Below are positions 1 through 61,816 of a stretch of 61,816 nucleotides of DNA, one piece after another. Location: IMG/VR virus record IMGVR_UViG_2740892042_000003. One strand, written 5' to 3'. The notes below the pieces were generated by a model that saw only the letters and a program-made list of their open reading frames with translations, ran no database searches and had not been told where the DNA came from. The stretch's first letter is position 1, and each line of letters opens with the position of its first letter. The DNA is from a virus (taxonomy: Duplodnaviria > Heunggongvirae > Uroviricota > Caudoviricetes). The position numbers and the translations under genes were made by a program.

Positions 1-1143
1 CTATGCTGTTTTAATATCTACGATAACCCAGTCTTTACCACGATCATCATTGTATCGGTCGGTCATTTTTCTGGATTTATGACCTAACAACTTTTGCGTA
101 TCCAGACCCTGTTCCCGATATAACCGTTCTGACAGAGATCGCTGCTCATGAAATGTGGGCGCAGTTCCTTGCTCCCATTTTATGCCACATTTTTCCCGGG
201 CCTTTTTAAAAGCCGTTGTCAGAGTATTTGCAGAAACCTGGTCTCCTCTGTTTGCTTGAGAGGTAGTGTGACGGTAATGGACCAGATATTTACTAACAAC
301 AGCATCCCTGCACTGAGATATAACTTCACGAAGGGTAATATTCAGAGCATCGCATTTCAGGTTAAGCGGAATAGCAAGTTTTGAACCGGTTTTTTCCTGA
401 GTAATGTGCAACATGTCGTCCCATATATCAGAGAATTTCAAATTGCAGATATCGCCTAAACGTTGTCCAGTAACAAGAGCAAGTAGCATCCCGCATTTTA
501 AATAGGGCTGCCGTCTGCTTACGCTGTCAAATATTGCCTGCCATTCGGGCAGTGATAATCTTTGGCGGTTTACTCGATTTCGCGGTTGTTTTGTTGCCTG
601 CGCTGGGTTAAATCCTGGCGGAACATGTCCGGCGTGTTGTGCTTCTTTGAAGACGTCGATCAACACCATTCTCACGACTTGCGCCATCCTGTTATGACCT
701 TCAGCCTTTACAGCATCAATTATTTCGGCAATATCAAGTGCGGTAATATCCTTGAGGTGTTGCATTCCACAATGCTCACGGAAAAGACGAATGGGTTTGC
801 CTTTTTGCCGATAGGAGTTGGGTCTTAGTTCATTATGTTGCAGCCTGTCCTCCTGGATAGAAATATATTTATCAAGCCATTCTGTCACCGTAATGTCTGA
901 GCGCCTGCCTTTCATTCTTTCCAGACGCTCATTGACGCTTAATATTTGTCGGGTACGTTGTTCAGCAATAATGGTATTTGCTTCAGTAGCAACTTGTTTT
1001 GCTTCATTCTCATCAGTTCCTAAGCTATGAAAACGACCGGATAGTGGATGTTTGTATTGCCAATATACCTTTCCGGTTCGCTTATCTAATTTGCAATATA
1101 AATTGGGTATAGAGATTTTGTGAGATCGGGGTCTAGCAGCCAT
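1..1143 (-). CDS. int: lambda-family tyrosine integrase (DLP12 IntD-like)
   Basis: 380-aa ORF; C-terminus HEQRSLSERLY...LLGHKS...RYNDDRG matches lambda Int catalytic region; first gene of prophage left arm, overlapped by xis. Confidence 0.9.
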   Translation of the reverse strand: MAARPRSHKISIPNLYCKLDKRTGKVYWQYKHPLSGRFHSLGTDENEAKQVATEANTIIAEQRTRQILSVNERLERMKGRRSDITVTEWLDKYISIQEDRLQHNELRPNSYRQKGKPIRLFREHCGMQHLKDITALDIAEIIDAVKAEGHNRMAQVVRMVLIDVFKEAQHAGHVPPGFNPAQATKQPRNRVNRQRLSLPEWQAIFDSVSRRQPYLKCGMLLALVTGQRLGDICNLKFSDIWDDMLHITQEKTGSKLAIPLNLKCDALNITLREVISQCRDAVVSKYLVHYRHTTSQANRGDQVSANTLTTAFKKAREKCGIKWEQGTAPTFHEQRSLSERLYREQGLDTQKLLGHKSRKMTDRYNDDRGKDWVIVDIKTA

Positions 1144-23470: not shown

Positions 23471-26451
<2,981 letters not shown>

Positions 26452-26528
26452 AACCCTTGCTGCGTCTGGAATGTCGTTTTCCATGCTTTTGATGACCGTT
26501 CATCACCCTTCCAGTTTTTCGCGGTTTT

Positions 26529-26581
26529 GTGTATTGCAATGTGTATTGCAAATTGGCGATCGGGATGGGTGTGTATTGCAA
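26529..26581 (+). repeat. integrase arm-type repeats (left end of island)
   Basis: gtgtattgcaa at 26529, 26541, 26571, directly upstream of island int. Confidence 0.55.
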
Positions 26582-26599
26582 ATCTCTTGAGGGCTTTTA

Positions 26600-27841: not shown

Positions 27842-27842
27842 T

Positions 27843-28100
27843 ATGGCAATTTATTCTCTTGTTGATGAAAACGATTTGCGCACAATGAAGGACATTGATC
27901 GGTTCATTCGTGAAAAAGAGTGCATAGCACTTACCACGCTGGCAAACTCAACACGCTGGAAAATGGAGCAGGCAGGTAAATTCCCGCGACGTATCAAGAT
28001 CGGTGAACGTGCTGCAGGGTATCGACTTTCAGAGGTTCAGGCATGGATCCGTGGTGAGTGGCATCCTGGATGGAAACCTGGAAAAACAAAACAGCAATAA
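27843..28100 (+). CDS. AlpA-family regulator/excisionase
   Basis: 85 aa; directly after int; AlpA-like HTH region. Confidence 0.7.
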   Translation: MAIYSLVDENDLRTMKDIDRFIREKECIALTTLANSTRWKMEQAGKFPRRIKIGERAAGYRLSEVQAWIRGEWHPGWKPGKTKQQ

Positions 28101-28156
28101 CCAGTAAATAATGCCCCTCATCACGAGGGGTTTTTTGTCTATAAGGTAAAAACGCG

Positions 28157-28735
28157 ATGAATAAAAATATTGCCGTGACGGGCAAGGGGTACGCTCGTCC
28201 AGTGAAAAAATTCTGCGATATTCGTGATCTCGTCGTTCTGCGCTTTGATAGTGTGAACGTTCGTGTGGTGTATCTGAACGGCGATCCGTGGTTTGTTGCA
28301 AAAGATGTTTGTGCTGCGCTGGAACTAACCAATTCGCGTACGGCGTTGCAGATGCTTGATGATGATGAAAAGGGAGTAAATTTAACTTACACCCCAGGAG
28401 GAAATCAGAATATGAGAATTATCTCTGAGTCAGGTTTCTACAAACTAATAGCCCGCAGCCGCAAAGCAACGACGCCTGGCACATTTGCTCATCGTTTCAG
28501 TAACTGGGTATTCAGAAATGTGATACCAGGTATCAGAAAAACGGGGACTTATGGTATCCCGTGGGGTGCATTACAGGATTTTTCCCGCCGTAAAGAGCAA
28601 TATCAAATAAGTGCCAGCGAGAAGGGGAGGGAGCTACAGGCATGTAAGCGCAAAAAGCGTGAGCTGGAGGAAGAAGAAAAAACGCTGATACGTGAATATC
28701 AGCCTGAGTTTTACTTTGGTAACCGCATTCAGTGA
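28157..28735 (+). CDS. Bro-N domain antirepressor-like protein
   Basis: VVYLNGDPWFVAKDVCAALEL... Bro-N signature. Confidence 0.7.
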   Translation: MNKNIAVTGKGYARPVKKFCDIRDLVVLRFDSVNVRVVYLNGDPWFVAKDVCAALELTNSRTALQMLDDDEKGVNLTYTPGGNQNMRIISESGFYKLIARSRKATTPGTFAHRFSNWVFRNVIPGIRKTGTYGIPWGALQDFSRRKEQYQISASEKGRELQACKRKKRELEEEEKTLIREYQPEFYFGNRIQ

Positions 28736-29068
28736 CAAAACAAAGGCGACCGCAAAAGGGTCGCCAGTGGGAACAAGGGAAAACAAAAGCATCACCAACA
28801 ATGCCACATTTGCGGCTGGTGGGCAATGTGATCAGTCAGATTTGGTTCGTTCCAAGGTTTGCAACGAGAGCTTTTTCCTGTGCTCTTTAAGGAATTTCTC
28901 AAGAGCAAACGAACAAGGTGCGAATCTTTCTGATTCATGTTCATGCGCTATATTTTTGCGTCGCCTCTTACGAGTTGGTGATGGTGTTTTGGTTGATTCT
29001 GTGTCGCTCATGGTGCTGTCCTGTAAAGCAATGCGCCTGCGTTCCTCAAACTATGGCGCTGATATTGG

Positions 29069-29374
29069 CTATTCATGCTCTTTGACCTTGCGTCGCTGGA
29101 GTTCTTCACGCGCGACGGTGACGAGTTGCCCGATCTCCTCGGCTGCTTTGATGCCGATTTGTTCGACCTTAGCCAGGGCATCCAGTGACGACACAAGGGG
29201 ATTTTCTCCGCTGCCTTCTGCTTGGCGGCGGGCTATTTCTCCGCGCATGGCGGTTACGATAAATCCGGCATTGCTTTCACCGTCCAGCTTAACGGATTCC
29301 ATCCCTTGCATAACATCTAGTGGGACTCTGACAGTTGTCAGTTGTGATTTTGCGTTTTTGTTAGCCGTTGCCAT
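29069..29374 (-). CDS. putative ribbon-helix-helix repressor
   Basis: 101 aa; N-terminal QLTTVRVPLDVMQGME beta-strand/helix pattern; divergent from promoter/operator at 29436-29473. Confidence 0.45.
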   Translation of the reverse strand: MATANKNAKSQLTTVRVPLDVMQGMESVKLDGESNAGFIVTAMRGEIARRQAEGSGENPLVSSLDALAKVEQIGIKAAEEIGQLVTVAREELQRRKVKEHE

Positions 29375-29435
29375 TTCTGAAACTCCTAATCATCGGTGTG
29401 TTTCAGTATACACAAAAAAAGAAATACAAAAAGCC

Positions 29436-29473
29436 TTGACGTGTGTTTCATGCGCTCATAACATGAAACACAC
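29436..29473 (+). promoter_or_regulatory. sigma70-like promoter overlapped by a 12-bp perfect inverted-repeat operator
   Basis: ttgacg-17 nt-taacat; inverted repeat gtgtgtttcatg (29441-29452) / catgaaacacac (29462-29473). Confidence 0.5.
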
Positions 29474-29564
29474 CGAAAGGATTGTTGAAATACAAAGAGC
29501 AACGCCCCGCAGTGCTGGGAACACATACGGGGCGTCTAACCAACAACGTAAACTAGGAGCCGTT

Positions 29565-29762
29565 ATGGTTGCTGTAAATCATATACCACACCTTGTACAC
29601 ACACAAACGGCCTTTGTGTGGCGTTTTCTGGCACTGAGTGCCGGAGAATCTCAAATCATCCACGTAACCGCCTGGACGGAACGCGAAGCGCGTAGCCGTT
29701 GCCCGTCCGGTTGTGTTGCTGTATTCGCTGCAAAAATCCGCCAGGGAGTGAGTCATGCTTAA
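29565..29762 (+). CDS. small Icd-like protein (host cell-division inhibitor family)
   Basis: 65 aa MVAVNHIPHLVHTQTAFVWRF..., AGGAG RBS; pattern of P4-type Icd-like proteins. Confidence 0.5.
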   Translation: MVAVNHIPHLVHTQTAFVWRFLALSAGESQIIHVTAWTEREARSRCPSGCVAVFAAKIRQGVSHA

Positions 29763-29940
29763 AACCTTCCGTGTATTTGCCCGAGCTGTTAACCCAATAG
29801 GCCACACAATTGGTATCGCTCAGAATGTGAAGGCTGTTAATGTTCAGACGGCTATTGCTGCGGTGAGAAGCGAATCATCAGAATATGGCTTATCACAAGT
29901 CATTATTTCAGCAGTGTATGAATTAAAAGAGGTGCATTAA
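29755..29940 (+). CDS. hypothetical protein
   Basis: 61-aa ORF in island early operon. Confidence 0.3.
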   Translation: MLKTFRVFARAVNPIGHTIGIAQNVKAVNVQTAIAAVRSESSEYGLSQVIISAVYELKEVH

Positions 29941-30131
29941 TGCAGGAAATTACATTACACGAAGCCGCTGAACGTGCGCACCAGACAGAAATTATTTGCC
30001 GCCTTCTTGAGGTATACCCGAACAAAATTACAGATGCTGATATATCCGCACTGGCGAGCCTACTGGCGCGTCTTTCGGGAAGTGTCGCTAGTTTTTTGAT
30101 TGAGGAAGAAAGTAAGCTGGTGGGGGATTAA
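29940..30131 (+). CDS. hypothetical protein
   Basis: 63-aa ORF, tightly packed in operon. Confidence 0.3.
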   Translation: MQEITLHEAAERAHQTEIICRLLEVYPNKITDADISALASLLARLSGSVASFLIEEESKLVGD

Positions 30132-30353
30132 ATGAATACAGAACGGGAAGTCTTTTTTAAATTGTTAGCATGTGCAGAAAGTTCATTAACTTTAAATAAT
30201 TCAGCAAAAGCAATATTAAATATGTGGCTTGATTGCATAAATGACAATGAAGATGCAAATATTGCTTATGGCCTGTTGTCACTTATTGATGAATCAGCAG
30301 AAAAACTCAATGACGCAATAAATAGTGCCCTGCTATCAAATAAGTCGAGTTAA
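30132..30353 (+). CDS. hypothetical protein
   Basis: 73-aa ORF, AT-rich codon usage unlike neighbours. Confidence 0.3.
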   Translation: MNTEREVFFKLLACAESSLTLNNSAKAILNMWLDCINDNEDANIAYGLLSLIDESAEKLNDAINSALLSNKSS

Positions 30354-30370
30354 GTCGAGGAATAAATAAT

Positions 30371-30670
30371 ATGGAAATGAAAAATTCTGGCTTTATTGCT
30401 AGCGGCCCCGCTCGACCTGAATTTATGAACGGCGATATTTACCGCGATAAATACGGCGGCACGGTAACGATTAAAGGCGTGGCAGAACGGCGCATCACTT
30501 ACCGCCGTGAGGGGTATAGCTATGACTGCGTGATGCCTGTTTATCAGTTCCGGCGTGATTTTTCCCTGGTATATGCCGCACCCCGCAGTAAGCCCATCAG
30601 CAGGGAAAAAGCGTGGGGAAATATCCAGAAAATGAAAACCATGATTAACGGATTCAGAGGTAAAAAATGA
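30371..30670 (+). CDS. hypothetical protein
   Basis: 99-aa ORF overlapping primase start. Confidence 0.4.
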   Translation: MEMKNSGFIASGPARPEFMNGDIYRDKYGGTVTIKGVAERRITYRREGYSYDCVMPVYQFRRDFSLVYAAPRSKPISREKAWGNIQKMKTMINGFRGKK

Positions 30671-32418
30671 AACTGGCACCGAACTTAAAAAAACAGCCAC
30701 GCGACAGACTGACAGAGATAATCATCTTTGCAGGTAGTGATGCGTGGAGCCATGCGAAAGAGTGGCAGGAATGGGCGGGTAAACATATTGCCGCCGACGA
30801 TGTGCCGCCTGTCGTGTTGGCTGATGAGCAACTGAAAAACATCACCGATTACCGGATCATTGATGAAGATCGTCAGTGTGTGCGTGTTTACCGCGCAGGA
30901 CATATCACAGAGCACAGCATGACGCAGATTGTTACGTTACTGGCTGTGGCTGGAGTGAAGACCGTACACGAATACGCGGGGATTACTGACACCAGCCCAG
31001 TGGATTTATCCGACCAGTTGCCGCGACTCAAAGAGGAATGCGAGCGTGGGGAAAGCCTGGTGCTTAATCTTCCGACGAAGCAAAAGGCGCAACTTTCACA
31101 GATGGCAGACAGTGAGCGCGCGCAGCTGCTTGCCGAGCGCTTTGATGGCGTTTGTGTGCATCCGGAAAGTGAAATCGTTCACGTATGGCGCGGCGGGGTA
31201 TGGTGTCCGATCAGCACAATGGAGCTGAGCCGCGAAATGGTGGCGATCTATTCAGAGCACAGGGCCACTTTCAGCAAACGCGTGATCAATAACGCCGTTG
31301 AAGCGTTAAAAGTTATTGCCGAACCAATGGGCGAGCCGTCCGGCGATTTGCTGCCGTTCGCCAATGGTGCGCTTGACCTGAAAACGGGGGAATTTTCCCC
31401 GCACACGCCGGAGAACTGGATCACCACGCACAACGGCATTGAGTACACGCCACCAGCACCAGGGGAGAACATCCGCGATAACGCGCCAAACTTTCATAAA
31501 TGGCTTGAGCACGCAGCCGGAAAAGACCCGCGCAAGATGATGCGTATATGTGCCGCGCTGTACATGATTATGGCGAACCGGTACGACTGGCAGATGTTCA
31601 TTGAGGCCACCGGAGACGGGGGAAGCGGTAAGAGTACATTTACCCATATTGCCACCCTGCTTGCTGGCAAACAGAACACCGTAAGCGCAGAGATGACATC
31701 ACTCGATGATGCAGGAGGGCGCGCGCAGGTTGTCGGGAGTCGTCTTATCGTCCTTGCCGATCAGCCGAAATATACGGGGGAAGGCACGGGCATCAAGAAA
31801 ATCACGGGAGGCGATCCCGTTGAAATCAACCCGAAATATGAGAAGCGATTCACGACGATAATAAGGGCGGTGGTACTGGCAACCAATAACGACCCGATGA
31901 TCTTTACCGAACGGGCCGGAGGTGTGTCACGCCGTCGGGTGATTTTCCGGTTCGACAACATTGTAAGGGAGGACGAAAAAGACAAGGAATTACCGGAAAA
32001 GATAGCGGCAGAAATCCCCGTAATTATCCGCCGCTTGCTGGCTAATTTTGCTGACCCTGAAAAGGCACGGGCTTTATTACTGGAACAGCGTGACGGTGAT
32101 GAAGCTCTGGCAATAAAGCAGCAAACGGATCCGGTTGTTGAGCTTTGCGCGGCGCTGGAGTTTCTGGAGGAAGCTCGTGGGCTAATGATGGGCGGTGGTG
32201 GTGACACCGTGAAGTACACGACCAGAAACAGCCTTTACCGTGTCTATATGGCCTTCATGGCATATACAGGAAAGGGGAAATGTTTGAGCGTGAATGAGTT
32301 CGGAAAGGCTATGAGGTCAGCGGCGAAAGTTTACGGATATGAATATATTACGCGAAAAGTTAAGGGAGTCACGCAGACCAACGCAACGACTACTGATGAT
32401 TGCGATGCGTTTTTATAA
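30667..32418 (+). CDS. primase-helicase (P4 alpha/PICI Pri-Rep-like)
   Basis: 583 aa; Walker A GDGGSGKST and D5/P4-type helicase region. Confidence 0.85.
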   Translation: MKLAPNLKKQPRDRLTEIIIFAGSDAWSHAKEWQEWAGKHIAADDVPPVVLADEQLKNITDYRIIDEDRQCVRVYRAGHITEHSMTQIVTLLAVAGVKTVHEYAGITDTSPVDLSDQLPRLKEECERGESLVLNLPTKQKAQLSQMADSERAQLLAERFDGVCVHPESEIVHVWRGGVWCPISTMELSREMVAIYSEHRATFSKRVINNAVEALKVIAEPMGEPSGDLLPFANGALDLKTGEFSPHTPENWITTHNGIEYTPPAPGENIRDNAPNFHKWLEHAAGKDPRKMMRICAALYMIMANRYDWQMFIEATGDGGSGKSTFTHIATLLAGKQNTVSAEMTSLDDAGGRAQVVGSRLIVLADQPKYTGEGTGIKKITGGDPVEINPKYEKRFTTIIRAVVLATNNDPMIFTERAGGVSRRRVIFRFDNIVREDEKDKELPEKIAAEIPVIIRRLLANFADPEKARALLLEQRDGDEALAIKQQTDPVVELCAALEFLEEARGLMMGGGGDTVKYTTRNSLYRVYMAFMAYTGKGKCLSVNEFGKAMRSAAKVYGYEYITRKVKGVTQTNATTTDDCDAFL

Positions 32419-32434
32419 AAAATGGCAATGGTTA

Positions 32435-32670
32435 TCTACCTTGTCTACCTGACTGAAATAAAATACTTTTATTTCAATGTATTAATGCAGGTAGATAACT
32501 ATTTTTCACTGTCTACCTGTTATCTACCTTATCTACCCATTTTTGTAGACAGGTAAGGAGACGGGTAGAGATGAGGTAGACAGCTATTTGGGGCTGTCTA
32601 CCTCCCTGAAACCCGCGCCATTACTGGCCTGATAACTAATCAAGTAGACAAGGTAGACAAGGTGGTGGTG
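32435..32670. repeat. island replication origin iterons
   Basis: more than 12 copies of gtctacc / ggtagac in both orientations immediately 3' of the primase gene. Confidence 0.65.
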
Positions 32671-32707
32671 CACAAAAAACTTTTTAAACGAGGGGGTAAA
32701 AATAAAA

Positions 32708-32965
32708 ATGCACACATCAGGAAAACTGAACAAACATATAAAGCCACATTACCGCGCCCTTGATATGGCTGAACACTGGCTAAGGGTGGCGATTAAGGCA
32801 ATAGACCGCAACGCCGGGGAAGGATACGCGAAAGCACATCCCGAACTGATAAGCGCATTCATGACAACGGCGGCTGCAAACTTTGCCACGCTGACCGAAC
32901 GGGAGATTGCCGAAGCGGAACAGGTGACAACCATCAATGTTAAAACCGGAGAGCAGACAGCATGA
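32708..32965 (+). CDS. hypothetical protein
   Basis: 85-aa ORF overlapping ssb start. Confidence 0.35.
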   Translation: MHTSGKLNKHIKPHYRALDMAEHWLRVAIKAIDRNAGEGYAKAHPELISAFMTTAAANFATLTEREIAEAEQVTTINVKTGEQTA

Positions 32966-33384
32966 CAGCACAGATAGCGGCTTACGGGCGGCTGGTGGCT
33001 GACCCGCAGTTAAAGACCACCAGCAAAGGGACACAAATGGCGATGGCGAGTATGGCGGTTCCCCTGCCGTGCAGCCAGGCAGATGACGGAACGGCGACGA
33101 TGTGGTTATCCGTCCTGGCGTTTGGCAGACAGGCCGACGCACTGGCAAAACACCACAAAGGCGAACTGGTGAGCGTGGCGGGTAACATGCAGGTAAGCCA
33201 GTGGACAGGCCAGAACGGCGAAACGCGGCGGGGCTGGCAGGTTATCGCAGACAGCGTAATCAGTGCGCGAACGGCGCGACCGGGCGGCAAAAAAGGCCAG
33301 CAGGGGCAGGCCACTGACGCACTGAACAGGGCAAAACAACAGTCGGGGAATGATGATCCGTACGGCGATAATATACCGTTTTAA
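32962..33384 (+). CDS. ssb: single-stranded DNA-binding protein
   Basis: 140 aa; OB-fold N-terminus, Gly/Gln-rich linker and C-terminal ...DDPYGDNIPF tail. Confidence 0.8.
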   Translation: MTAQIAAYGRLVADPQLKTTSKGTQMAMASMAVPLPCSQADDGTATMWLSVLAFGRQADALAKHHKGELVSVAGNMQVSQWTGQNGETRRGWQVIADSVISARTARPGGKKGQQGQATDALNRAKQQSGNDDPYGDNIPF

Positions 33385-33595
33385 ATTCTGCAAACAAAAA
33401 GATGCCGGAAAAAAATAGATTTTCCGGCATGCTACATAAATCCCGACCAAAGGAAGTAAATACATTAACACGAATTATCAGCACTGAAGTTGTTACGGCA
33501 TATTTTATACAACATTGCACTTGGTTGCATGTATTCGCATAGCAGACATCGGTAATAGAATATATTCACAATTATTTGTAATGAATGTAAAGAGG

Positions 33596-34643
33596 ATGAG
33601 TATGGTTGATTTATATTCGCCTACACAGCTTGTGCAGGTGGCTAATGCTGAAGATGTGCAAAAAAAAATTAAATGCGTTGTTTACCAGTTTGTTTTTCAC
33701 TCGCTCGGTAATGTTTGAATCGAGAGACATTATTCTTGATACGATCGACGATCCAAATATCCCGATCGCGGCGTTTTGCTCTCCTATGGTGGGCAGTAAA
33801 GTTTCACGAGATGAGGGATACGAATCAAAAACAATTCGTCCAGGTTATATGAAGCCGAAAAGCAGCATTGATCCAAATAAGTTAGCTGTGCGCCCTGCTG
33901 GTGTGTCACCTGAGCAATACAATGCTTTTGGGGCGCGTAATATTAAAGTTAAACAGGCGATTGTAAATCAGGCTAAAGCTATTCGTGCACGTATTGAATG
34001 GCTTGCTGTTCAGGCAATCACAACGGGGAAAAATATCATTGAGGGCGATGGTATTGAACGTTATGAGCTGGACTGGAATATAAAACCACAAAATATCATC
34101 ACTCAGTCTGGCGGTACTGAGTGGTCAGGTAAGGATAAAGAAACTTTTGATCCAAATGATGATATTGAGAGCTACGCAGAATTTAGTGAGGGCGTCACTA
34201 ATATCATCATTATGGGTGGTAATGTATGGAAGAAATACCGTTCATTCAGAGCGATAAAAGAGGCTTTGGATACCCGTCGTGGTTCTAATTCCGAACTGGA
34301 AACGGCCCTTAAAGACCTTGGTGATTCGGTGAGTTTTAAAGGGTATATGGGCGATGTTGCGATTGTTGTTTACAGCGGGCGTTATACCGACGAGGACGGA
34401 ACAGAAAAACATTTCCTTGATCCTGATTTGATGGTGCTTGGCAATACGGCTCTTCAGGGGATTGTCGCCTATGGCGGTATTCAGGATCCGGAGCTAATCC
34501 GAATGGGGCTGACTAAAGCCGAACTTGCACCGAAAAACTATATTGTGCCTGGTGATCCGGCTATTGAATATGTGCAGACACATTCAGCACCACAGCCAAT
34601 ACCGGCCCGCATCAATCGTTTTGTTACCGTTCGCATTGGCTAA
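33596..34643 (+). CDS. gpE-like major capsid protein, frameshifted at an A9 tract
   Basis: AAGAGG RBS and ATG at 33596; MSMVDLYSPTQLVQVANAEDVQKK aligns with lambda E N-terminus, then homology continues in +1 frame after A9 run 33660-33668 (LNALFTSLFFTRS... to end); about 40 percent similar to prophage E. Confidence 0.75.
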
Positions 34644-34652
34644 GGGGGAGCA

Positions 34653-34994
34653 ATGGCTACTCATTACACTGAACTCATGGCTGGCACTGAAGCACTGGTG
34701 ACTACGCTGGGGATATTTTCAGCTAATAAAGGGGTAATTCCTGCATTTACGCCACTGATGCAGGAAGATGCAACAGGTGCACTGGTGGTATGGGATGGTT
34801 CGAGCGTAGGTAAAGCGGTTTATGTTTCCGCTGTACAAATCGACACAGCGAAAAAAACACAGGCACAGGTTTATAAGACAGGTGTTTTAAATGTTGATGC
34901 TCTGAACTGGCCTGAGTCTGTAAAAGAACTGTCGGCAAAGGTTGCCGCGTTTGTTGGCTCAGGTATTTCTGTTCAGCCGCTGGCTCGTGTGTAA
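34653..34994 (+). CDS. gpD-like head decoration protein
   Basis: 113 aa; TPLMQEDATGALVVWDGSS aligns with lambda [21 protein letters not shown]. Confidence 0.7.
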   Translation: MATHYTELMAGTEALVTTLGIFSANKGVIPAFTPLMQEDATGALVVWDGSSVGKAVYVSAVQIDTAKKTQAQVYKTGVLNVDALNWPESVKELSAKVAAFVGSGISVQPLARV

Positions 34995-35005
34995 AGGGGG
35001 ATACA

Positions 35006-35389
35006 ATGCAGAATCATTACAATGACCTTAAGCCAATTGCCGAAATGATGTATCCGGATCCAGCAGTAGAGGAATTAAAGGCTATTGCTGACAAAATGCG
35101 TTTAAGTGAACGCCTTGTTGATATGAATCAGGTGATGGAACTTACTACCCTTAGCCGTCGCACATTGCTAAACCTTGAGGCTCGCGGAGAGTTCCCCGAA
35201 CGCGTACAGGTTACGGAAGGGCGTAAGGCCTGGTATTTAAGTGAAGTGATCGACTGGATAAACAATATTCCTCGATCTTCTGAATATTGCCGCGTACCTG
35301 TCCCAAAAAAGCCAGATGCGGCGCTATGCCTCAAGATTGAGCGTGTACGTCGCAATGCACGGGATGGTCGCTATAAGTTGATTGGTTGA
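35006..35389 (+). CDS. AlpA-family transcriptional regulator
   Basis: ELTTLSRRTLLNLEARGEFPERVQVTEGRKAWYLSEVIDWI AlpA-type HTH. Confidence 0.6.
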   Translation: MQNHYNDLKPIAEMMYPDPAVEELKAIADKMRLSERLVDMNQVMELTTLSRRTLLNLEARGEFPERVQVTEGRKAWYLSEVIDWINNIPRSSEYCRVPVPKKPDAALCLKIERVRRNARDGRYKLIG

Positions 35390-35445
35390 TGAAATTAGGG
35401 CCCGTTCTGGCTGGCGGGTCCTTTCCGGCGATCCGGTAGGCTACG

Positions 35446-35479
35446 GGGCGGCGACCTCGCGGGTTTTCGCTATTTATGA
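35446..35479. other. island cos site with lambda-identical cosN
   Basis: gggcggcgacctcgcgggttttcgctatttatga, preceded by cosQ-like cgggtcctttccggcgatccggtagg. Confidence 0.65.
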
Positions 35480-35590
35480 GCCTTTTTCGGGTGCTGGTGG
35501 TGGTTTTGTTGCTCGCTCTATCTCTATGAATAAAAAGGAAAAGATAAAGCCAATACACCAACCTGAAACATTACTTAAGTGGGGATATTG

Positions 35591-36133
35591 ATGAAATCGC
35601 ACCTGATGAACAAAAAAAACATGGCGCAAAGCTGCCGTGTAAGTGCGACAGCGTTCGACAAGTGGGGAGTGACTCCCGTTGAACGTAAAGGCCGCGAGGC
35701 GTTTTATGATGTTGCCAGCGTAATAGACAATCGGGTTAGCAATGCAATTAACCAGATTACAGACGACAAAGGCGAGATTGATGATGATGAACTCCTACGA
35801 GTCAGGATCAGATTGCTGACAGCACAGGCAGAGGCGCAGGAGCTTAAAAACGAGCGCGAACGCGGCGACGTTATTGATACAGCGTTTTGTATATACGTGC
35901 TTTCAAAATTGGCGAGTCAGATTTCTTCAATCATGGACAGCCTGCCGCTTGCCATGACAAGGAAGTTTCCCGACATGAAGCCGTCTATGCTGGATGGACT
36001 GAAAAAAGAAGTTATCAGAGCCTGTAACGCATGCGCAAAACTTGACGAAAACATACCGCTGATGCTGTCCGATTATCTGATGGAAACTGCCGGAAACGTA
36101 CCGGATAAGTTGCAGCCGAATAAAGATAAGTAA
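35591..36133 (+). CDS. Nu1-like terminase small subunit
   Basis: aligns with lambda Nu1 (NKKQ...; ELKN...VIDTAFCIYVLSKLASQISSIMDSLPLAMTRKFPDM vs ELKNAKESAEVVETAFCTFVLSRIAREISSILDGIPLSVQRRFPEL). Confidence 0.7.
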   Translation: MKSHLMNKKNMAQSCRVSATAFDKWGVTPVERKGREAFYDVASVIDNRVSNAINQITDDKGEIDDDELLRVRIRLLTAQAEAQELKNERERGDVIDTAFCIYVLSKLASQISSIMDSLPLAMTRKFPDMKPSMLDGLKKEVIRACNACAKLDENIPLMLSDYLMETAGNVPDKLQPNKDK

Positions 36134-36144
36134 CGTAGTACGCT

Positions 36145-36426
36145 ATGACTGAATCCGAAATACTGCGATTAATCCGCCGTGCTTGTGGAATCAGCAAGCA
36201 GCATGACGAACAGGCCACGCAGCCGGACAGCGTGACCGCAGATAATTATGTGCGTGTAGTGGCTGAGGTGATGCGCCGTGACGGTATTGAGCTTAACGGC
36301 GTGGATATGCGCAACATACGAACAAGAGTCCTTGAGTTGCTGGCATATCGTCGCCGTTCTCAACAACGGAGGGAGAGCGCGAAAAATACTTACCAGTGGA
36401 AGAAGCCGGAACGATTGCGGCGGTAA
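36145..36426 (+). CDS. hypothetical Arg-rich protein
   Basis: 93-aa ORF directly after island terS. Confidence 0.35.
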   Translation: MTESEILRLIRRACGISKQHDEQATQPDSVTADNYVRVVAEVMRRDGIELNGVDMRNIRTRVLELLAYRRRSQQRRESAKNTYQWKKPERLRR

Positions 36427-36680
36427 CTTGCTGATATTCCCGATAACGCAAAATTGCGCTGGCTGACTTGTTGCATTGCAAAAAGTTAAGCAGGAAGGCA
36501 CGGCCTGTAAGATGGGATGCAGTAAGTAGTTCAAGGCTACCTTGTGCTGGCACGCACAGTTAAGCCGTCGGTGCTGGATATCCCCCACTGGGGGAAAAGC
36601 TGGCTACATCCCTCACATCTGAGGACTGATAACGCGACATTGCGCTGGCTGGCAAAGTGCAAAATTGCACGATGGCCTAA

Positions 36681-36817
36681 CCCATTGATTATTTCGAAAA
36701 CCTGCAATGCAGGAAATCGGGGAAGTAAGCCTAAGCTATTGATTGTTTCGAAAACCCCCATTGGGGGATGTCGGGAAAGTAAGACTAACCCATTGATTCT
36801 TCCACAATCCTCAATTT
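36681..36817 (+). repeat. three direct repeats near island right end (candidate TerS/cosB-like binding sites)
   Basis: cccattgattatttcgaaaacc, gctattgattgtttcgaaaacc, cccattgattcttccacaatcc, each near a G5/C5 hairpin. Confidence 0.45.
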
Positions 36818-37140
36818 GAGGAGGCCGGAACGTCTACATAGCTGCATCGCCGTAATGATGATTCAGCCCACCAGTCAAATCAGCACAGCAACGACAGAAT
36901 AGCCCGACACAGAAAAACCACGAATATGGGGTTTTTGTTATGACATGGTCATGATGACCACTCATACAAAACAGGTAAAGCCCACCAGCCTGATTAAAGG
37001 TTAACCGGAAAAAAGCCAGGTATCCAATCTCGATATGGGGATCCCTATATCGACATTAACGCCCACTAAAACTGTGCATATATGCATAGAAAAAGCATCC
37101 ACCAGCTTTATGACGGATGCCGCTCATCTTATAAATAATC

Positions 37141-37162
37141 GTGTATTGCAGTGTGTATTGCG
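37141..37162 (+). repeat. integrase arm-type repeats (right end of island)
   Basis: gtgtattgca gtgtgtattgcg, same motif as left-arm repeats. Confidence 0.55.
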
Positions 37163-37235
37163 ACTCCTTTAAACGATAGGTCTGAGCATTCGTAATGTAC
37201 TGTTTTTAAATTTTATTTTTTCCTGTCTTTTCATA

Positions 37236-38015
37236 AAGGCGATGTATGCCGCCACCATTGAGAGTGAGCTGGATACGCAGTCAGCGATGGATTTTATTCT
37301 GGGCGCGAACAGTAAGGAGCAGCGGGACAAGCTGACCGGCTGGATTGGTGAAATTGCCGCGTATTACGCCGCAGCACCGGTCCGTCTGGGAGGCGCAAAA
37401 GTGCCGCACCTGATGCCGGGGGACTCACTGAACCTGCAGACGGCTCAGGACACGGATAACGGCTACTCCGTGTTTGAGCAGTCACTGCTGCGGTATATCG
37501 CTGCCGGACTGGGTGTCTCGTATGAGCAGCTTTCCCGGAATTACGCCCAGATGAGCTACTCCACGGCACGGGCCAGCGCGAACGAGTCGTGGGCGCACTT
37601 TATGGGGCGGCGAAAATTCGTCGCATCCCGTCAGGCGAGCCAGATGTTTCTGTGCTGGCTGGAAGAGGCCATCGCCCGCCGCGTGGTGACGTTACCTTCA
37701 AAAGCGCGCTTCAGTTTTCAGGAAGCCCGCAGTGCCTGGGGGAACTGCGACTGGATAGGCTCCGGTCGTATGGCCATCGATGGTCTGAAAGAAGTTCAGG
37801 AAGCGGTGATGCTGATAGAAGCCGGGCTGAGTACCTACGAGAAAGAGTGTGCAAAACGCGGCGATGACTATCAGGAAATTTTTGCCCAGCAGGTCCGTGA
37901 AACGATGGAGCGTCGTGCAGCCGGTCTTAAACCACCCGCCTGGGCGGCTGCGGCATTTGAATCCGGGCTGCGACAATCAACAGAGGAGGAGAAGAGTGAC
38001 AGCAGAGCTGCGTAA
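37236..38015 (+). pseudogene. B: portal protein B, C-terminal 257 codons
   Basis: MYAATIESELDTQSAMDF... matches lambda gpB residues 277-533; 276 + 257 = 533. Confidence 0.85.
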
Positions 38016-57949: not shown

Positions 57950-58699
57950 ATGGATTATGTTTGCTCCGTAGTTTTCATCTGTCAATCATTTGATTTAATT
58001 ATAAACAGGAGAGTTATCTCGTTCAAAAAAAATTCATTGTTTATTGTAAGCGACAAAATTAGAAGAGAGTTACCAGTATGCCCCTATAAACTAAGAATTG
58101 TTGATATAGATAAGAAAACATGTTTATCCTTTTTTATCGACGTGAATAATGAGTTGCCTGGCAAATTTACTCTTGATAAGAATGGCTATATTGCTGAAGA
58201 GGAACCTCCATTATCGCTTGTTTTTTCTCTGTTTGAAGGGATTAAAATAGCAGACTCACACTCCCTTTGGTTAAAAGAAAGACTATGTATATCCTTACTT
58301 GCCATGTTCAAAAAACGCGAAAGTGTAAATTCATTTATACTAACAAATATAAATACATTTACCTGTAAAATTACTGGAATAATCAGTTTTAATATTGAGC
58401 GGCAATGGCATTTAAAAGATATTGCGGAATTGATTTATACGAGTGAAAGTTTAATAAAAAAAAGATTAAGGGATGAAGGAACGTCATTTACTGAAATATT
58501 GAGAGATACTAGGATGAGGTATGCAAAAAAACTCATAACTTCAAACTCTTATTCTATCAATGTCGTAGCCCAGAAATGTGGCTATAACAGTACTTCATAT
58601 TTCATATGTGCATTTAAAGATTATTATGGTGTCACGCCATCTCATTATTTTGAGAAAATAATCGGCGTCACAGATGGAATAAACAAAACAATTGACTGA
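57950..58699 (+). CDS. appY: AraC-family regulator AppY
   Basis: 249 aa matching E. coli AppY; AT-rich upstream region. Confidence 0.9.
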
Positions 58700-58948
58700 T
58701 AATATTTATTACAAGTTGTCTACATGTTAATTATAATATTATACAGCGTGTTTTTTGATGTGATATTCTGGAACCATTAATTTGTAATTGGGTTGCTGTC
58801 GCCTATTTTATACACACTATAATTGATGGTTTTCTATGTGATTTAGTTAATAACCTTCTGGGTTTATTTTAAGGGTTAATTGTTACATTGAAATGGCTAG
58901 TTATTCCCCGGGGCGATTTTCACCTCGGGGAAATTTTAGTTGGCGTTC

Positions 58949-59902
58949 TTAAAATGTGTACTTAAGACCAGCAGTAGTGATGAAGTTATAGTTTTCTATG
59001 CCTGCTCCATTTTTGCTGTAGTCTGAAGTGTTATTATTGTGATCATAAAGTGAAGTATTACCTTTTTTATTCGTAACCCGATTCCATGCGCCTTCAACAT
59101 AAACTTTTGCGTTAGGTGTGACGTAATAACCTGCATTGACTGCAACAGAATAGTAATTTTGGTCTTTGACCTTACTGCGATAAGTGATTCTTTTTCCCGG
59201 GTCATAGTGTTCATCGTTATCAGATGATTCCACCCAGCCGCTGTATTTAAATGTGCCACCTAGCTCAAAATCTTCATAACGATAACTTCCAGTCAAGCCA
59301 ATGTAGGGCATTTTAAAACGTTGTTTGTAGCCGATTGCTCTTTCTCCATTCGGGAAGGAGCCGATATCATCTCTGAATCCCTCCTCAGAACTGTAGATAT
59401 AGGAACCACCTCTGGCTGTAAAGCTATAACGGCTTTCCTGATATCCGGCCATGAGTCCCAGGCGGTAATTGGGTTCGTTGAGGAGCCAGCCTTTGATATT
59501 CAGATCAAATTCGTTGGCATAATTGAGTTGTGTATCAGGATGTCTACTTTCATCCGTCCAGGTTCCGGGGTTACTGGAATCCATCCAGTCCTGATCGACC
59601 ATATTGCCACCTCGGCTGCCGAGTGTTGTCCAGCCAGCAGCCCCGATAGATATCTGAGGCATCAAATCCCAATTAATTGCACCTTTAATAATTGCAGCGT
59701 TATTGAATTTCCAGTCAAGTTGACTGACTTTTCGGCTTCCTTCTTCGGCTAGATAAACACGCTCTTTTGTTTTTCCGCTCAGAGTTCCAAGACTAATGTC
59801 CGCATTTATGTTGTCAGGAGTAAACGATAAAGTCTCGGTAGAAGCAAAAGAGTTGATCGCAATAGGGGTTGTCAGGACTATTCCCAGAAGTTTCGCCCGC
59901 AT
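58949..59902 (-). CDS. ompT: outer membrane protease OmpT (omptin)
   Basis: 317 aa matching E. coli OmpT. Confidence 0.95.
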   Translation of the reverse strand: MRAKLLGIVLTTPIAINSFASTETLSFTPDNINADISLGTLSGKTKERVYLAEEGSRKVSQLDWKFNNAAIIKGAINWDLMPQISIGAAGWTTLGSRGGNMVDQDWMDSSNPGTWTDESRHPDTQLNYANEFDLNIKGWLLNEPNYRLGLMAGYQESRYSFTARGGSYIYSSEEGFRDDIGSFPNGERAIGYKQRFKMPYIGLTGSYRYEDFELGGTFKYSGWVESSDNDEHYDPGKRITYRSKVKDQNYYSVAVNAGYYVTPNAKVYVEGAWNRVTNKKGNTSLYDHNNNTSDYSKNGAGIENYNFITTAGLKYTF

Positions 59903-60446
59903 AAAAGTTCTCCATTCAATCGTTTTAATGATTGAATATGTATTTTTTATATCTAACTTAATGAGTCAATTACATATTGCTCCACTGTTTATATTTTGTT
60001 TAGTATTGAATGATTATCACAATGCGCTATCTGTTTTTGGTTTAATTATCTGTTATTGTTTCATATTGCGGTTTTACTGTGTGGTTTTTTTATGATTTTG
60101 TGGTGCTTTTATCTATTTAAGTGCCATGCCTTTAGAGGCATATAAGCGAAAATAGCATGAGGTTTATCCTCAATTACTATGTTTTTTAGTACAAAAAAGA
60201 GGGACAAAACTGAGACACATAAGGCCTCACAAAGGTCTGCAAGGCCTCACATGTATTGAGATGTTAATAAAATGTAGGCTTGTAATTTTGATATAAATGG
60301 TAGATAAAACCTTTCCCCAAAATAAAAACGAACGTCAATGAAATCAAACGGTTGAATAAAGTTGATTTTGGCTAATAAAAAGACAATAAAATAATTTTTA
60401 TCATTAAATATCAATGAATTGAACTTAATGTTTTTATATACTGCTG

Positions 60447-60605
60447 CGCCATATGGGCTGGACTGAAGCCGCAGACCTGATTGTTAAAGGTATGGAAGGC
60501 GCAATCAATGCGAAGACCGTAACCTATGACTTCGAACGTCTGATGGAAGGCGCTAAGCTGCTGAAATGTTCAGAGTTTGGCGATGCGATCATCAAGAACA
60601 TGTAA
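60447..60605 (+). pseudogene. icd: 3' fragment of isocitrate dehydrogenase gene icd
   Basis: encodes (M)[49 protein letters not shown], the last 52 codons of Icd, with no upstream icd body. Confidence 0.7.
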
Positions 60606-60868
60606 TTACTATATGTGTTAAATATTATAACGGGCGTATAACACGCCCGTTGTTTTATGTAAGTTTTCTAACGGTTATCAAAATAAGTTATCAAAACCTC
60701 TTAGTTGTTTGGGGTCGGTTGGTCAGTCAGATGACAGTTCTACGGCCAGGTTCCTATTAGACATTCCTCTATTTGGTGGACGCTCGTTAATATTTAGATC
60801 CGCTATGTGTCAGGTGCGGACATTGTTATAAATGCCAATTGATATAACGTCAGCTCGTTTATCTCATC

Positions 60869-61429
60869 TTACAGAACCTCAACAACTTCAAACTCTTCCA
60901 TAATCAACTCCATATCTTCAGAAAAATGACCTTCCTGGGTGAAAAATCGTTGATGCTCTCTCTGCCAATATTCAAGGCTCAAATCGCCTTCACCTTCCTT
61001 GCGAGCTAACTCGGCAGTAACATCACAAAAACACACCAGTTGCATCGACACCAGCCTGGTCACTCATACCGGTACATCCTGGCCGTCAAGGATGATGTTA
61101 TAGCTCCCAATCCTTGGGGCAAATTCTTCCTTCTGATAAGAGGCATAAGAGCCACAGGAGGCCGTTTTAATCCCTTTTTCTATAAGTGCTGCAAGCTCGT
61201 TAGCCAGTTCAGGGCTGTCGCCCATTTGCCAGGCATTCGCGTCCGGATATTTCATCTTTAGTTCATCAACCTTACCCATTACACGTCCTTTCTGATTGTA
61301 AATAATAGAGAAATAGCTGAGCATTAATTGTTCGAATATTAACAGTGATGCTTTCTTGCTAATATCATAGTTCGTTTTTCGCTCAAAGCGGGCTGTTTGG
61401 TTCTTTTTCATGTGGGGTGAGAAATTCAA
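60869..61429 (-). pseudogene. ASCH-domain protein interrupted by in-frame TGA
   Basis: two adjacent ORFs in the same frame separated only by TGA at 61064-61066; C-terminal EGEGDLSLEYWQREHQRFF resembles ASCH proteins. Confidence 0.55.
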
Positions 61430-61479
61430 GGAGGCGTTGAGACGTTTAAATTTTCACAACGCTACTTTGCGCCATTCTT

Positions 61480-61816
61480 TACCTCAATTATCATGATAAC
61501 GATCGGTTTGACGAAAGTGATCGCGCCTACGCGGATATTATCGTGAGTATGCTTCATCGCCATTGCTCCCCAAATACAAAACCAATTTCAGCCAATGTCT
61601 CGTCCATTTTTTTGATGAACTCCGGCACCATCTCGTCAAAACTCGGCATGTACTTCTCATGTCAGGCTACTTATTTCCTGAACGGGGTTTTGCTATCACG
61701 TTGTGAATTTCAGAAGCGGTAATGACGCTGAGCCGTAATTTGTGCCACGCATTATCTCCCTGTTTGACAGCCCTCATGTCGATCCCGGTACGCAGCAGGA
61801 TAATGTCCGGTGCCAT
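61480..61816 (-). pseudogene. exo: second copy of orf60a/exo with internal deletion (runs off window)
   Basis: 61495-61650 is about 90 percent identical to 2700-2850 and 61680-61816 to 3290-3428, with the intervening exo body missing; exo N-terminus [29 protein letters not shown]. Confidence 0.7.

What the first reader, a model, noticed from the sequence alone, without database searches (positions are those of the whole stretch)
60447..61066. icd 3' fragment and an ASCH gene with an in-frame stop beyond ompT
A stand-alone copy of the last 52 codons of icd (60447-60605) is the signature left by e14-type elements that integrate into icd and duplicate its 3' end, marking a former or current attachment scar. 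Next to it an ASCH-domain gene is interrupted by a single in-frame TGA at 61064-61066, apparently at a conserved Cys position.
Basis: partly seen in the sequence, partly recalled or inferred. Interest (0 to 1): 0.4.

Follow-up and report, generated by a model that had tools for sequence, protein, structure and literature searches.

The report
Prophage attachment scar in icd
The stray end of the icd gene is the ordinary right-hand junction of a phage-21-type prophage sitting in the isocitrate dehydrogenase gene of Escherichia marmotae, and the neighbouring ASCH gene is a real but ordinary lineage-specific pseudogene.

Summary
Both observations are real. Window 60442-60605 is the last 164-165 nt of icd. 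It is the host's own 3' end, displaced when the roughly 60.4-kb lambdoid prophage that fills window 1-60441 integrated into icd. The prophage runs from a phage-21-type integrase at 1-1143 to appY-ompT cargo and the phage P arm. E. marmotae strains without the prophage are 100% identical to the window from 60442 to 61816, and there that stretch continues an intact 416-aa icd. Sister lysogens have full icd 113 bp from the same integrase, with a phage-supplied, synonymous 3' end. The fragment is therefore attR, equivalent to icdC of E. coli K-12.

The ASCH gene (60869-61279, minus strand) carries TGC>TGA at codon 72. That Cys is invariant in the 120 closest homologs. The identical truncated product occurs in at least 24 independent contigs, with and without the prophage, so it is a fixed nonsense allele and not a sequencing error. 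No SECIS-like structure follows it.

ASCH sits in an older decayed prophage remnant with e14-type repeats, an internally deleted exo, then emrE, ybcL and ybcM.

Verdict: known biology, low interest. Seen in passing: a satellite embedded in the prophage portal gene, and a weak STnc150-like match.

The parts
1..1143 (-). Integrase of the resident prophage: lambda-type tyrosine recombinase with an arm-binding domain. The window starts at its stop codon.
   Evidence: PF09003 and PF00589. The identical protein lies 113 bp from a full-length icd in 6 of 6 loci. Three of those are E. marmotae, and their first 5143 nt are 99.1-99.98% identical to the window (99.96-99.98% for L020 and L022).
57950..59902 (.). 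appY (57950-58699, plus) and ompT (58949-59902, minus): cargo genes at the right end of the prophage.
   Evidence: The same order (tail fibres, appY, ompT, icd') is annotated in E. coli strain 582.
60201..60441 (+). P arm of attR, the phage DNA left of the crossover. It contains the only phage-21-type arm site in the window, TTCCCCAAAA at 60313-60322.
   Evidence: 92.8% identical to the phage 21 attP left arm. Arm-site search. Four-way att alignment.
60442..60457 (+). 16-nt identity block TGCTGCGCCATATGGG shared by attB, attL, attR and attP. Strand exchange is inferred to lie inside it.
   Evidence: Left of it attR equals phage and attL equals host. At 60458 attR and attB have C while attL has T.
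60442..60605 (+). Displaced native 3' end of icd, an icdC-type pseudogene forming the B' side of attR.
   Evidence: 100% identical to the icd 3' end of prophage-free E. marmotae contigs L012 and L017. It differs from the phage-supplied copy in attL at 7 positions, all synonymous.
60627..60653 (.). Bidirectional intrinsic terminator of icd.
   Evidence: Conserved in attB, attL, attR and attP.
60675..60696 (+). Two tandem TTATCAAAA repeats resembling the P' arm of e14. Read as a fossil of an older icd-integrated element. The other E. marmotae allele has a third copy, an 11-nt indel.
   Evidence: These are the only two copies in the window, and they align with the three repeats next to icd in K-12 e14 attL.
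60619..60849 (-). Sub-threshold similarity to the Salmonella sRNA STnc150, which lies next to icdA. The match covers the terminator and the repeats, and would form the 3' UTR of the ASCH gene.
   Evidence: 41.5 bits, gathering score 60. Similar weak hits occur on the K-12 e14 attL arm and on the other E. marmotae allele. Salmonella location from PMC2515195.
60869..61279 (-). ASCH-domain gene (136 codons) inactivated by TGC>TGA at codon 72 (61064-61066).
61554..61816 (-). Remnant of a lambda-type exo gene: residues 1-49 (61667-61816) and 196-226 (61554-61649), with about 411 nt deleted internally. Part of a decayed second prophage.
   Evidence: In sister contigs it is followed by emrE, an esterase, ybcL, ybcM and csp, which are DLP12-like genes.

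Best explanation
The window comes from Escherichia marmotae and is almost entirely one lambdoid prophage integrated into icd, as phage 21 does. Its integrase recombined the phage attP with a 16-nt core inside icd, 164 nt before the stop codon. The phage attP carries its own copy of the last ~165 nt of icd, plus the terminator.

After integration the chromosome reads as follows:
- The icd 5' part joined to the phage-supplied, synonymous 3' end, then the terminator, three TTCCCCAAAA arm sites and int. This is attL, just left of the window.
- The ~60 kb prophage.
- appY, ompT and the phage P arm, then the displaced native icd 3' end. This is attR, at 60442-60605.

The fragment is therefore a promoterless, non-functional by-product that also serves as half of the excision substrate. 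Int/Xis-mediated excision would rejoin it to icd.

To its right lies native E. marmotae DNA that is itself an older, decayed prophage remnant. It holds e14-type arm repeats, an ASCH accessory gene, an internally deleted exo, and then emrE, ybcL and ybcM. In one E. marmotae sublineage the ASCH gene acquired a TGC>TGA nonsense mutation at Cys72. This removes the C-terminal half of the domain, so the gene is a pseudogene.

Shown here: the sequence identities, the att architecture and the spread of the TGA allele. Inferred: the exact crossover position, that the full icd lies just outside this window, and that the prophage can still excise.
For: - Empty site: contigs L012 and L017 carry a full icd and are 100% identical to window 60442-61816.
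- Occupied site: L013, L014 and L015 have the same prophage end and the same flank, 99.76-99.99% identical.
- attL: the identical integrase lies 113 bp from a 416-aa icd in 6 of 6 loci. Three are E. marmotae with chromosomal flanks 99.5-99.8% identical to L012.
- The four-way attB/attL/attR/attP alignment shows the reciprocal arm exchange, and only synonymous differences between the two icd ends.
- The P arm and the icd copy are 92-95% identical to the attP region of phage 21 and related phages, where int and xis follow.
- E. coli strain 582 has the same prophage, 99-99.9% identical, with PGAP-annotated partial icd at its end followed by iraM, as for K-12 icdC.
- Species: protein names. The icd-purB flank of prophage-free sister contig L012 is at most 94.6% identical to any of 5426 E. 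coli genomes.
- ASCH: Pfam hit. TGC in the intact allele, which differs from the window by only 4 SNPs across the 1.07 kb right of 60744.
- TGA allele: the exact 115-aa truncated product is on 24 contigs read, and indexed in 40 blocks, both beside an intact icd and beside the prophage. It is deposited as a hypothetical protein of E. marmotae.
- Cys72 is invariant in 120 homologs.
- The RNA downstream of the TGA folds no better than shuffled sequence, z = +0.84.
- Published mechanism for e14 and phage 21 at icd: PMC6379469, PMC12803456 and PMC10111431.
Against: - The window stops at the int stop codon, so attL and the full icd of this particular genome are not seen. They are inferred from near-identical lysogens.
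- The attP of this exact phage was not observed as a free phage. The crossover block is deduced from sister strains, and it assumes that the T at the position matching 60458 in attL is phage-derived.
- The prophage carries a 10.8-kb insertion in its portal gene, so its ability to produce particles, though not necessarily to excise, is uncertain.
- Loss of ASCH function is inferred from the truncation. No expression data exist.
Confidence: 0.93

Rival explanations
1. The fragment is the phage-borne duplicate (P' side) of a second, tandem prophage lying to its right, whose int and xis were lost. On this reading it is not the host's own icd end.
For: Directly after the terminator come two TTATCAAAA repeats that align with the e14 P' arm of K-12. 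These are followed by phage-type genes: ASCH, which is prophage cargo elsewhere in Escherichia, then an exo remnant and DLP12-like genes. SNPs between the two E. marmotae alleles are concentrated at 60509-60744 (10 SNPs plus an 11-nt indel), against 4 SNPs in the next 1.07 kb. That pattern suggests past phage-mediated replacement of the icd end.
Against: In prophage-free E. marmotae this very sequence is the working 3' end of icd, 100% identical. With respect to the present prophage it is therefore the native B' arm. The rival may be true only as deep history: the native end itself may descend from an ancient e14-type insertion.
Confidence: 0.1
2. The TGA in ASCH is a sequencing or assembly error, and the gene is intact.
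For: It is a single-base difference from an otherwise near-identical intact allele.
Against: The exact truncated 115-aa product is found on at least 24 contigs from independent NCBI, ENA and Logan assemblies, in two different genomic configurations. It is also deposited under several E. marmotae accessions.
Confidence: 0.01
3. The TGA is decoded rather than terminating. It could be read as selenocysteine at a Cys/Sec position or read through, or translation could restart at the adjacent GTG (UGAGUG) to give a two-piece ASCH protein. Function would then be kept.
For: UGA in place of a strictly conserved Cys is the classic Sec/Cys signature. A GTG follows the stop immediately, and the downstream 64 codons remain open. 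The allele persists in a sublineage.
Against: No stable hairpin follows the UGA: minimum free energy -19.1 kcal/mol against a shuffled mean of -21.4, z = +0.84. No RNA family hit lies there. The downstream sequence is the same as in TGC alleles, so no SECIS has evolved. No Shine-Dalgarno sequence precedes the GTG. The Cys is replaced by Ala in PDB 1t62, so it is not a redox or catalytic essential across the family.
Confidence: 0.02
4. The fragment is simply the end of a complete icd gene that the first reader overlooked.
For: None found.
Against: Upstream of 60442 the sequence matches the phage 21 attP left arm and then ompT and appY. Homology to icd of sister strains begins abruptly at 60442.
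Confidence: 0

Closest known systems
icdC pseudogene at attR of the e14 element in E. coli K-12
   Same: A 165-nt orphan copy of the icd 3' end at the int-distal end of an icd-integrated prophage. Functional icd is preserved by a phage-supplied 3' end.
   Different: The resident element here is a full-size lambdoid prophage with phage-21-type arm sites, not the 15-kb defective e14. The host is E. marmotae. The two ends here are fully synonymous, whereas in K-12 the two copies differ at two residues: D/E in the ...LM(D/E)GAK... motif and D/E in ...FG(D/E)AII....
Phage 21 attP / int module (OL657228, M61865)
   Same: Same layout: P arm, icd' copy, terminator, three YYTTCCCCAAAA sites, then int and xis. 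92.5% nucleotide identity over window 60300-60660.
   Different: The rest of the prophage differs. It carries appY-ompT cargo instead of phage 21's sit genes. In the window only the P-arm half is joined to host DNA.
Prophage at icd in E. coli strain 582 (NZ_CP120568.1), and the '61icd' composite of PMC10111431
   Same: Strain 582 carries the same prophage, 99.9% and 98.95% identical over the two blocks, with identical attR up to 60658. The 61icd composite is likewise a ~50-kb icd prophage carrying an ~11-kb satellite inside a late gene.
   Different: Strain 582 lacks the 10.8-kb insertion, and iraM follows its attR. In the published composite the satellite sits in the capsid gene, whereas here the portal gene is split.
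ASCH domain proteins of the YhfF / COG4405 type (PF04266; PDB 1t62, 3s9x)
   Same: Full-length match to the ASCH profile. 1t62 gives E 3e-26 and 3s9x gives E 2e-18.
   Different: The window copy is truncated at residue 71. The biochemical function of this subfamily is unknown. There is no hit in PADLOC, PHROGs or NCBIfam.
Salmonella sRNA STnc150 (RF01402)
   Same: Same position and orientation: antisense, immediately downstream of icd, ending at the icd terminator. The 3' ~80 nt are shared, including two UUUUGAUAA repeats.
   Different: The score of 41.5 bits is below the gathering score of 60. The 5' two-thirds match poorly. No expression data exist for E. marmotae.

Membership tests
attR junction of an icd-integrating lambdoid prophage (phage 21 / e14 type) | An orphan copy of the last ~165 nt of icd, not preceded by the rest of the gene. 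| tested here: met
   Homology covers 60442-60605. Upstream is phage P arm and ompT.
attR junction of an icd-integrating lambdoid prophage (phage 21 / e14 type) | Prophage DNA is contiguous on one side, and host DNA on the other side is identical to an unoccupied site. | tested here: met
   Left side: prophage 99-99.9% identical to that of E. coli 582. Right side: 100% identical to the empty-site contigs L012 and L017.
attR junction of an icd-integrating lambdoid prophage (phage 21 / e14 type) | At the other prophage end, a complete icd carrying a phage-supplied 3' end next to int (attL). | tested here: inconclusive
   This lies outside the window, which starts at the int stop codon. It is met in 6 of 6 loci that encode the identical integrase, including three E. 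marmotae lysogens.
attR junction of an icd-integrating lambdoid prophage (phage 21 / e14 type) | A lambda-family tyrosine integrase with an arm-binding domain, plus cognate arm-type sites. | tested here: met
   PF09003 and PF00589. One TTCCCCAAAA site in the P arm and three in the P' arm of sister attL, matching the consensus annotated for phage 21.
attR junction of an icd-integrating lambdoid prophage (phage 21 / e14 type) | Int/Xis-dependent excision that regenerates attB and attP. | not testable with these tools
   Needs induction followed by PCR or sequencing. Indirect support only: both occupied and empty sites exist within the same TGA sublineage.
ASCH domain (PF04266) | Profile match above the Pfam gathering score. 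| tested here: met
   76.7 bits against a cut-off of 21.2 on the sequence with codon 72 repaired.
ASCH domain (PF04266) | An uninterrupted reading frame encoding the whole domain. | tested here: not met
   TGA at codon 72. Gene callers split it into a 115-aa and a 58-aa product.
Bacterial selenoprotein gene | A SECIS hairpin immediately 3' of the in-frame UGA. | tested here: not met
   The fold is no better than shuffled sequence, z = +0.84. No Rfam hit lies there.
Rfam RF01402 STnc150 | A covariance-model score at or above the gathering score of 60 bits. | tested here: not met
   41.5 bits in the window, 25.6 bits in L009 and 28.7 bits on K-12 e14 attL.
e14 element | An e14-type P' arm followed by e14 genes (ymfD, ymfE, lit, intE). 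| tested here: not met
   Only the arm-like repeats resemble e14: 85.6% identity over 60442-60696. What follows is ASCH and an exo remnant, and there is no int.

The most novel reading that the evidence does not exclude
The sequence just downstream of icd (terminator plus tandem TTATCAAAA repeats, 60619-60700) may be a fossil e14-type attachment arm that has been exapted as RNA. The experimentally validated Salmonella sRNA STnc150 shares exactly this module. On that reading, the minus-strand transcript ending at the icd terminator in E. marmotae, which is the 3' UTR of the now-dead ASCH gene, would be an STnc150-like regulatory RNA born from a phage att site. A more radical reading, which is practically excluded (about 1-2%), is that the UGA at Cys72 is recoded.
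Probability: 0.15. Interest if true: 0.35.

Novelty: already known. Interest (0 to 1): 0.12.

Why it matters
The value is mainly for annotation. The fragment marks the exact right boundary (60441/60442) of an apparently complete prophage. That prophage is shared at 99-99.9% identity between E. coli and E. marmotae, whose housekeeping genes are only about 94% identical. It carries the virulence-associated protease gene ompT and the regulator appY as cargo.

The locus also shows layering at icd: a current phage-21-type prophage on top of an older remnant with e14-type repeats. This illustrates why the 3' end of icd is a recombination mosaic in enteric bacteria. None of it changes current understanding. 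The ASCH pseudogene is a routine decay event in a prophage remnant.

Tried and rejected
- A scan of species-representative genomes for a 26-mer from the ASCH/exo spacer found nothing. The species was instead identified from protein names and identity levels.
- PADLOC, PHROGs and NCBIfam gave no family for the ASCH protein, so no defence or phage function can be assigned.
- A pooled Rfam search of four loci returned nothing because of stricter filters. The same regions searched singly gave weak STnc150 hits.
- My first guess was that the 249-aa gene was envY. It is appY.
- My first model had the fragment as the phage-borne copy of a tandem second prophage. I dropped it as the proximate explanation once the empty-site contigs proved 100% identical.
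- Selenocysteine recoding was considered and rejected.
- The e14 sRNA C0293 has no counterpart here. The equivalent distance downstream of icd falls inside the ASCH gene.

Full report

Yes. The ORF at 60453-60605 translates to the C-terminus of isocitrate dehydrogenase. Pfam Iso_dh matches profile positions 306-348 of 348. Nothing icd-like precedes it.

The ASCH gene lies at 60869-61279 on the minus strand. It has a single in-frame TGA at 61064-61066. Repairing that codon gives a full-length PF04266 match with E 2.5e-21.

**2. What the window is**

The first gene, at 1-1143 on the minus strand, is a lambda-family integrase with an arm-binding domain. The window then runs through recombination, immunity, replication, lysis, head and tail genes to J, lom, tail fibres, appY (57950-58699) and ompT (58949-59902).

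Apart from one insertion, window 1-60658 is collinear with a prophage of E. coli strain 582. Identity is 99.9% over 1-26404 and 98.95% over 37236-60658. In strain 582 PGAP annotates int next to icd at one end. At the other end it annotates a partial 'isocitrate/isopropylmalate family dehydrogenase' followed by iraM. That is the same layout as e14 and icdC in K-12.

The host here is not E. coli:
- Proteins of the flanking chromosome are deposited as Escherichia marmotae.
- The icd-purB segment of a sister strain is at most 94.6% identical to any of 5426 complete E. coli genomes.

**3. Proof that the fragment is attR and is the native end of icd**

An exact-sequence look-up of the truncated ASCH product returned two kinds of contig. 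The first kind is E. marmotae without the prophage (L012, L017, L019). There a full 416-aa icd is followed directly by the ASCH gene, and these contigs are 100% identical to window 60442-61816 over 1375 nt with no mismatch. The second kind carries the same prophage end: icd' 50-aa ORF, omptin, AraC-type regulator, tail fibres. L013 is 99.99% identical over 10.7 kb.

A look-up of the integrase returned six loci in which the identical protein lies 113 bp from a convergent, complete icd. Three are E. marmotae, with chromosome 99.5-99.8% identical to L012 and the first 5143 nt of the prophage 99.1-99.98% identical to the window.

I aligned attB (L012), attL (L020), attR (window) and attP (phage 21). 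The pattern is the textbook one:
- attR equals the phage P arm up to 60441 and equals attB from 60442 on.
- attL equals the host up to the same point, then carries the phage-type icd copy, the terminator and three TTCCCCAAAA arm sites before int.
- The block shared by all four is TGCTGCGCCATATGGG (60442-60457). At 60458 attR and attB have C and attL has T, so strand exchange is inferred to lie inside that block.

The two icd ends differ at seven positions within the homology, all synonymous, so Icd is unchanged by lysogeny. One phage-21-type arm site lies in the P arm at 60313-60322, the only one in the window. Window 60300-60660 is 92-95% identical to the attP region of phage 21 and several lambda-like phages, where int and xis follow. 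This mechanism is established for e14 and phage 21 (PMC6379469, PMC12803456, PMC10111431).

**4. What lies to the right**

The DNA after the terminator is native E. marmotae sequence, but it is itself phage-derived.
- Two tandem TTATCAAAA repeats at 60675-60696 align with the triple repeat in the e14 P' arm of K-12. The other E. marmotae allele has a third copy, an 11-nt indel.
- The pieces at 61667-61816 and 61554-61649 are residues 1-49 and 196-226 of a lambda-type exonuclease, with about 411 nt deleted between them.
- Sister contigs continue with emrE, an esterase, ybcL, ybcM and a csp gene. Their E. coli counterparts are DLP12-type prophage genes.

So the resident prophage sits on top of an older, decayed lambdoid remnant that has lost int and xis.

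Differences between the two E. marmotae alleles cluster at 60509-60744 (10 SNPs plus the indel). The next 1.07 kb has only 4 SNPs. This fits repeated phage-mediated replacement of the icd end, but that is an inference.

**5. The ASCH gene**

The closest intact allele is P0001/P0151, recorded on 218 contigs and named ASCH domain protein of E. marmotae. It has TGC where the window has TGA. Cys72 is invariant in all 120 listed homologs, which are at least 79% identical. It is Cys in PDB 3s9x and Ala in PDB 1t62.

The TGA allele is not an error. The exact truncated product is on 24 contigs read, indexed in 40 blocks, from NCBI, ENA and Logan assemblies. It occurs both beside an uninterrupted icd and beside the prophage. 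The mutation is therefore independent of the prophage and fixed in a sublineage.

The 83 nt around and after the UGA fold no better than shuffled sequence (z = +0.84), and no RNA family matches there. Selenocysteine recoding is therefore unsupported. The truncation removes the C-terminal half of the domain, including the conserved EGEGD segment. I call it a pseudogene; this rests on inference, with no expression data.

The gene is ordinary chromosomal DNA in Enterobacter ludwigii. In E. coli 2547 and E. fergusonii it is cargo in P2-like prophages. No PADLOC, PHROG or NCBIfam family covers it, and the biochemical role of this ASCH subfamily is unknown.

**6. Comparison with the known, and verdict**

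The fragment is the E. marmotae equivalent of icdC. The integration module is phage-21-type, and the same prophage is already annotated in E. coli. Novelty: already known. Interest: low.

**7. Seen in passing**

- A 10.8-kb element at 26405-37235 splits the prophage portal gene. It carries an integrase, a Bro-N protein, a D5-type primase, SSB, a capsid-E-like protein, AlpA and a Nu1-like small terminase. This is a helper-embedded PICI-type satellite of the kind described in PMC10111431.
- The minus strand at 60619-60849 gives a sub-threshold hit to the Salmonella sRNA STnc150 (41.5 bits against 60). STnc150 is encoded next to icdA (PMC2515195). The e14 arm of K-12 gives a similar weak hit.

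Noticed in passing
window 26405-37235: A 10.8-kb insertion splits the lambda-family portal gene of the prophage into halves at 25570-26451 and 37242-38015. It is absent from the otherwise near-identical prophage of E. coli 582. It encodes its own tyrosine integrase (26600-27841), a Bro-N protein, a D5_N/DUF5906 primase-helicase (30667-32418), SSB, a capsid-E-like protein (33606-34643), AlpA and a Nu1-like small terminase. This looks like a helper-embedded PICI-type satellite as described in PMC10111431, but with the portal gene as its target.
   Followed up: partly
window 60619-60849 (minus strand): Sub-threshold Rfam match to the Salmonella sRNA STnc150 (41.5 bits, gathering score 60, E 2e-7). 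The match is strongest over the icd terminator and the two TTATCAAAA repeats. STnc150 is encoded next to icdA in Salmonella. The e14 attL arm of K-12 (L003 1887-2093) and the other E. marmotae allele also give weak hits. This hints that the sRNA's 3' module and the e14-type attachment arm share an origin.
   Followed up: partly
window 1-60658 vs L026 (E. coli 582): The prophage is 99-99.9% identical between E. coli and E. marmotae, while the neighbouring housekeeping genes are only about 94% identical. This implies recent transfer of the phage between species. It carries appY and ompT as cargo, which in K-12 belong to the DLP12 remnant at argU.
   Followed up: partly
window 60509-60744: The two E. 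marmotae alleles of the icd end and downstream spacer differ at 10 SNPs plus an 11-nt repeat-unit indel within 236 nt. The next 1.07 kb has only 4 SNPs. This is a local mosaic consistent with past phage-mediated replacement of the icd 3' end.
   Followed up: no
window 60211-60254 (minus strand): A long imperfect hairpin (18 pairs, built on a repeated GAGGCCTT motif) followed by a T run lies between ompT and the phage P arm. It is terminator-like by the simple scan and was not examined further.
   Followed up: no
L026 39473-39775 (E. coli 582 prophage): The ren gene of the related prophage is annotated with an internal stop. I did not check whether the window copy shares it.
   Followed up: no
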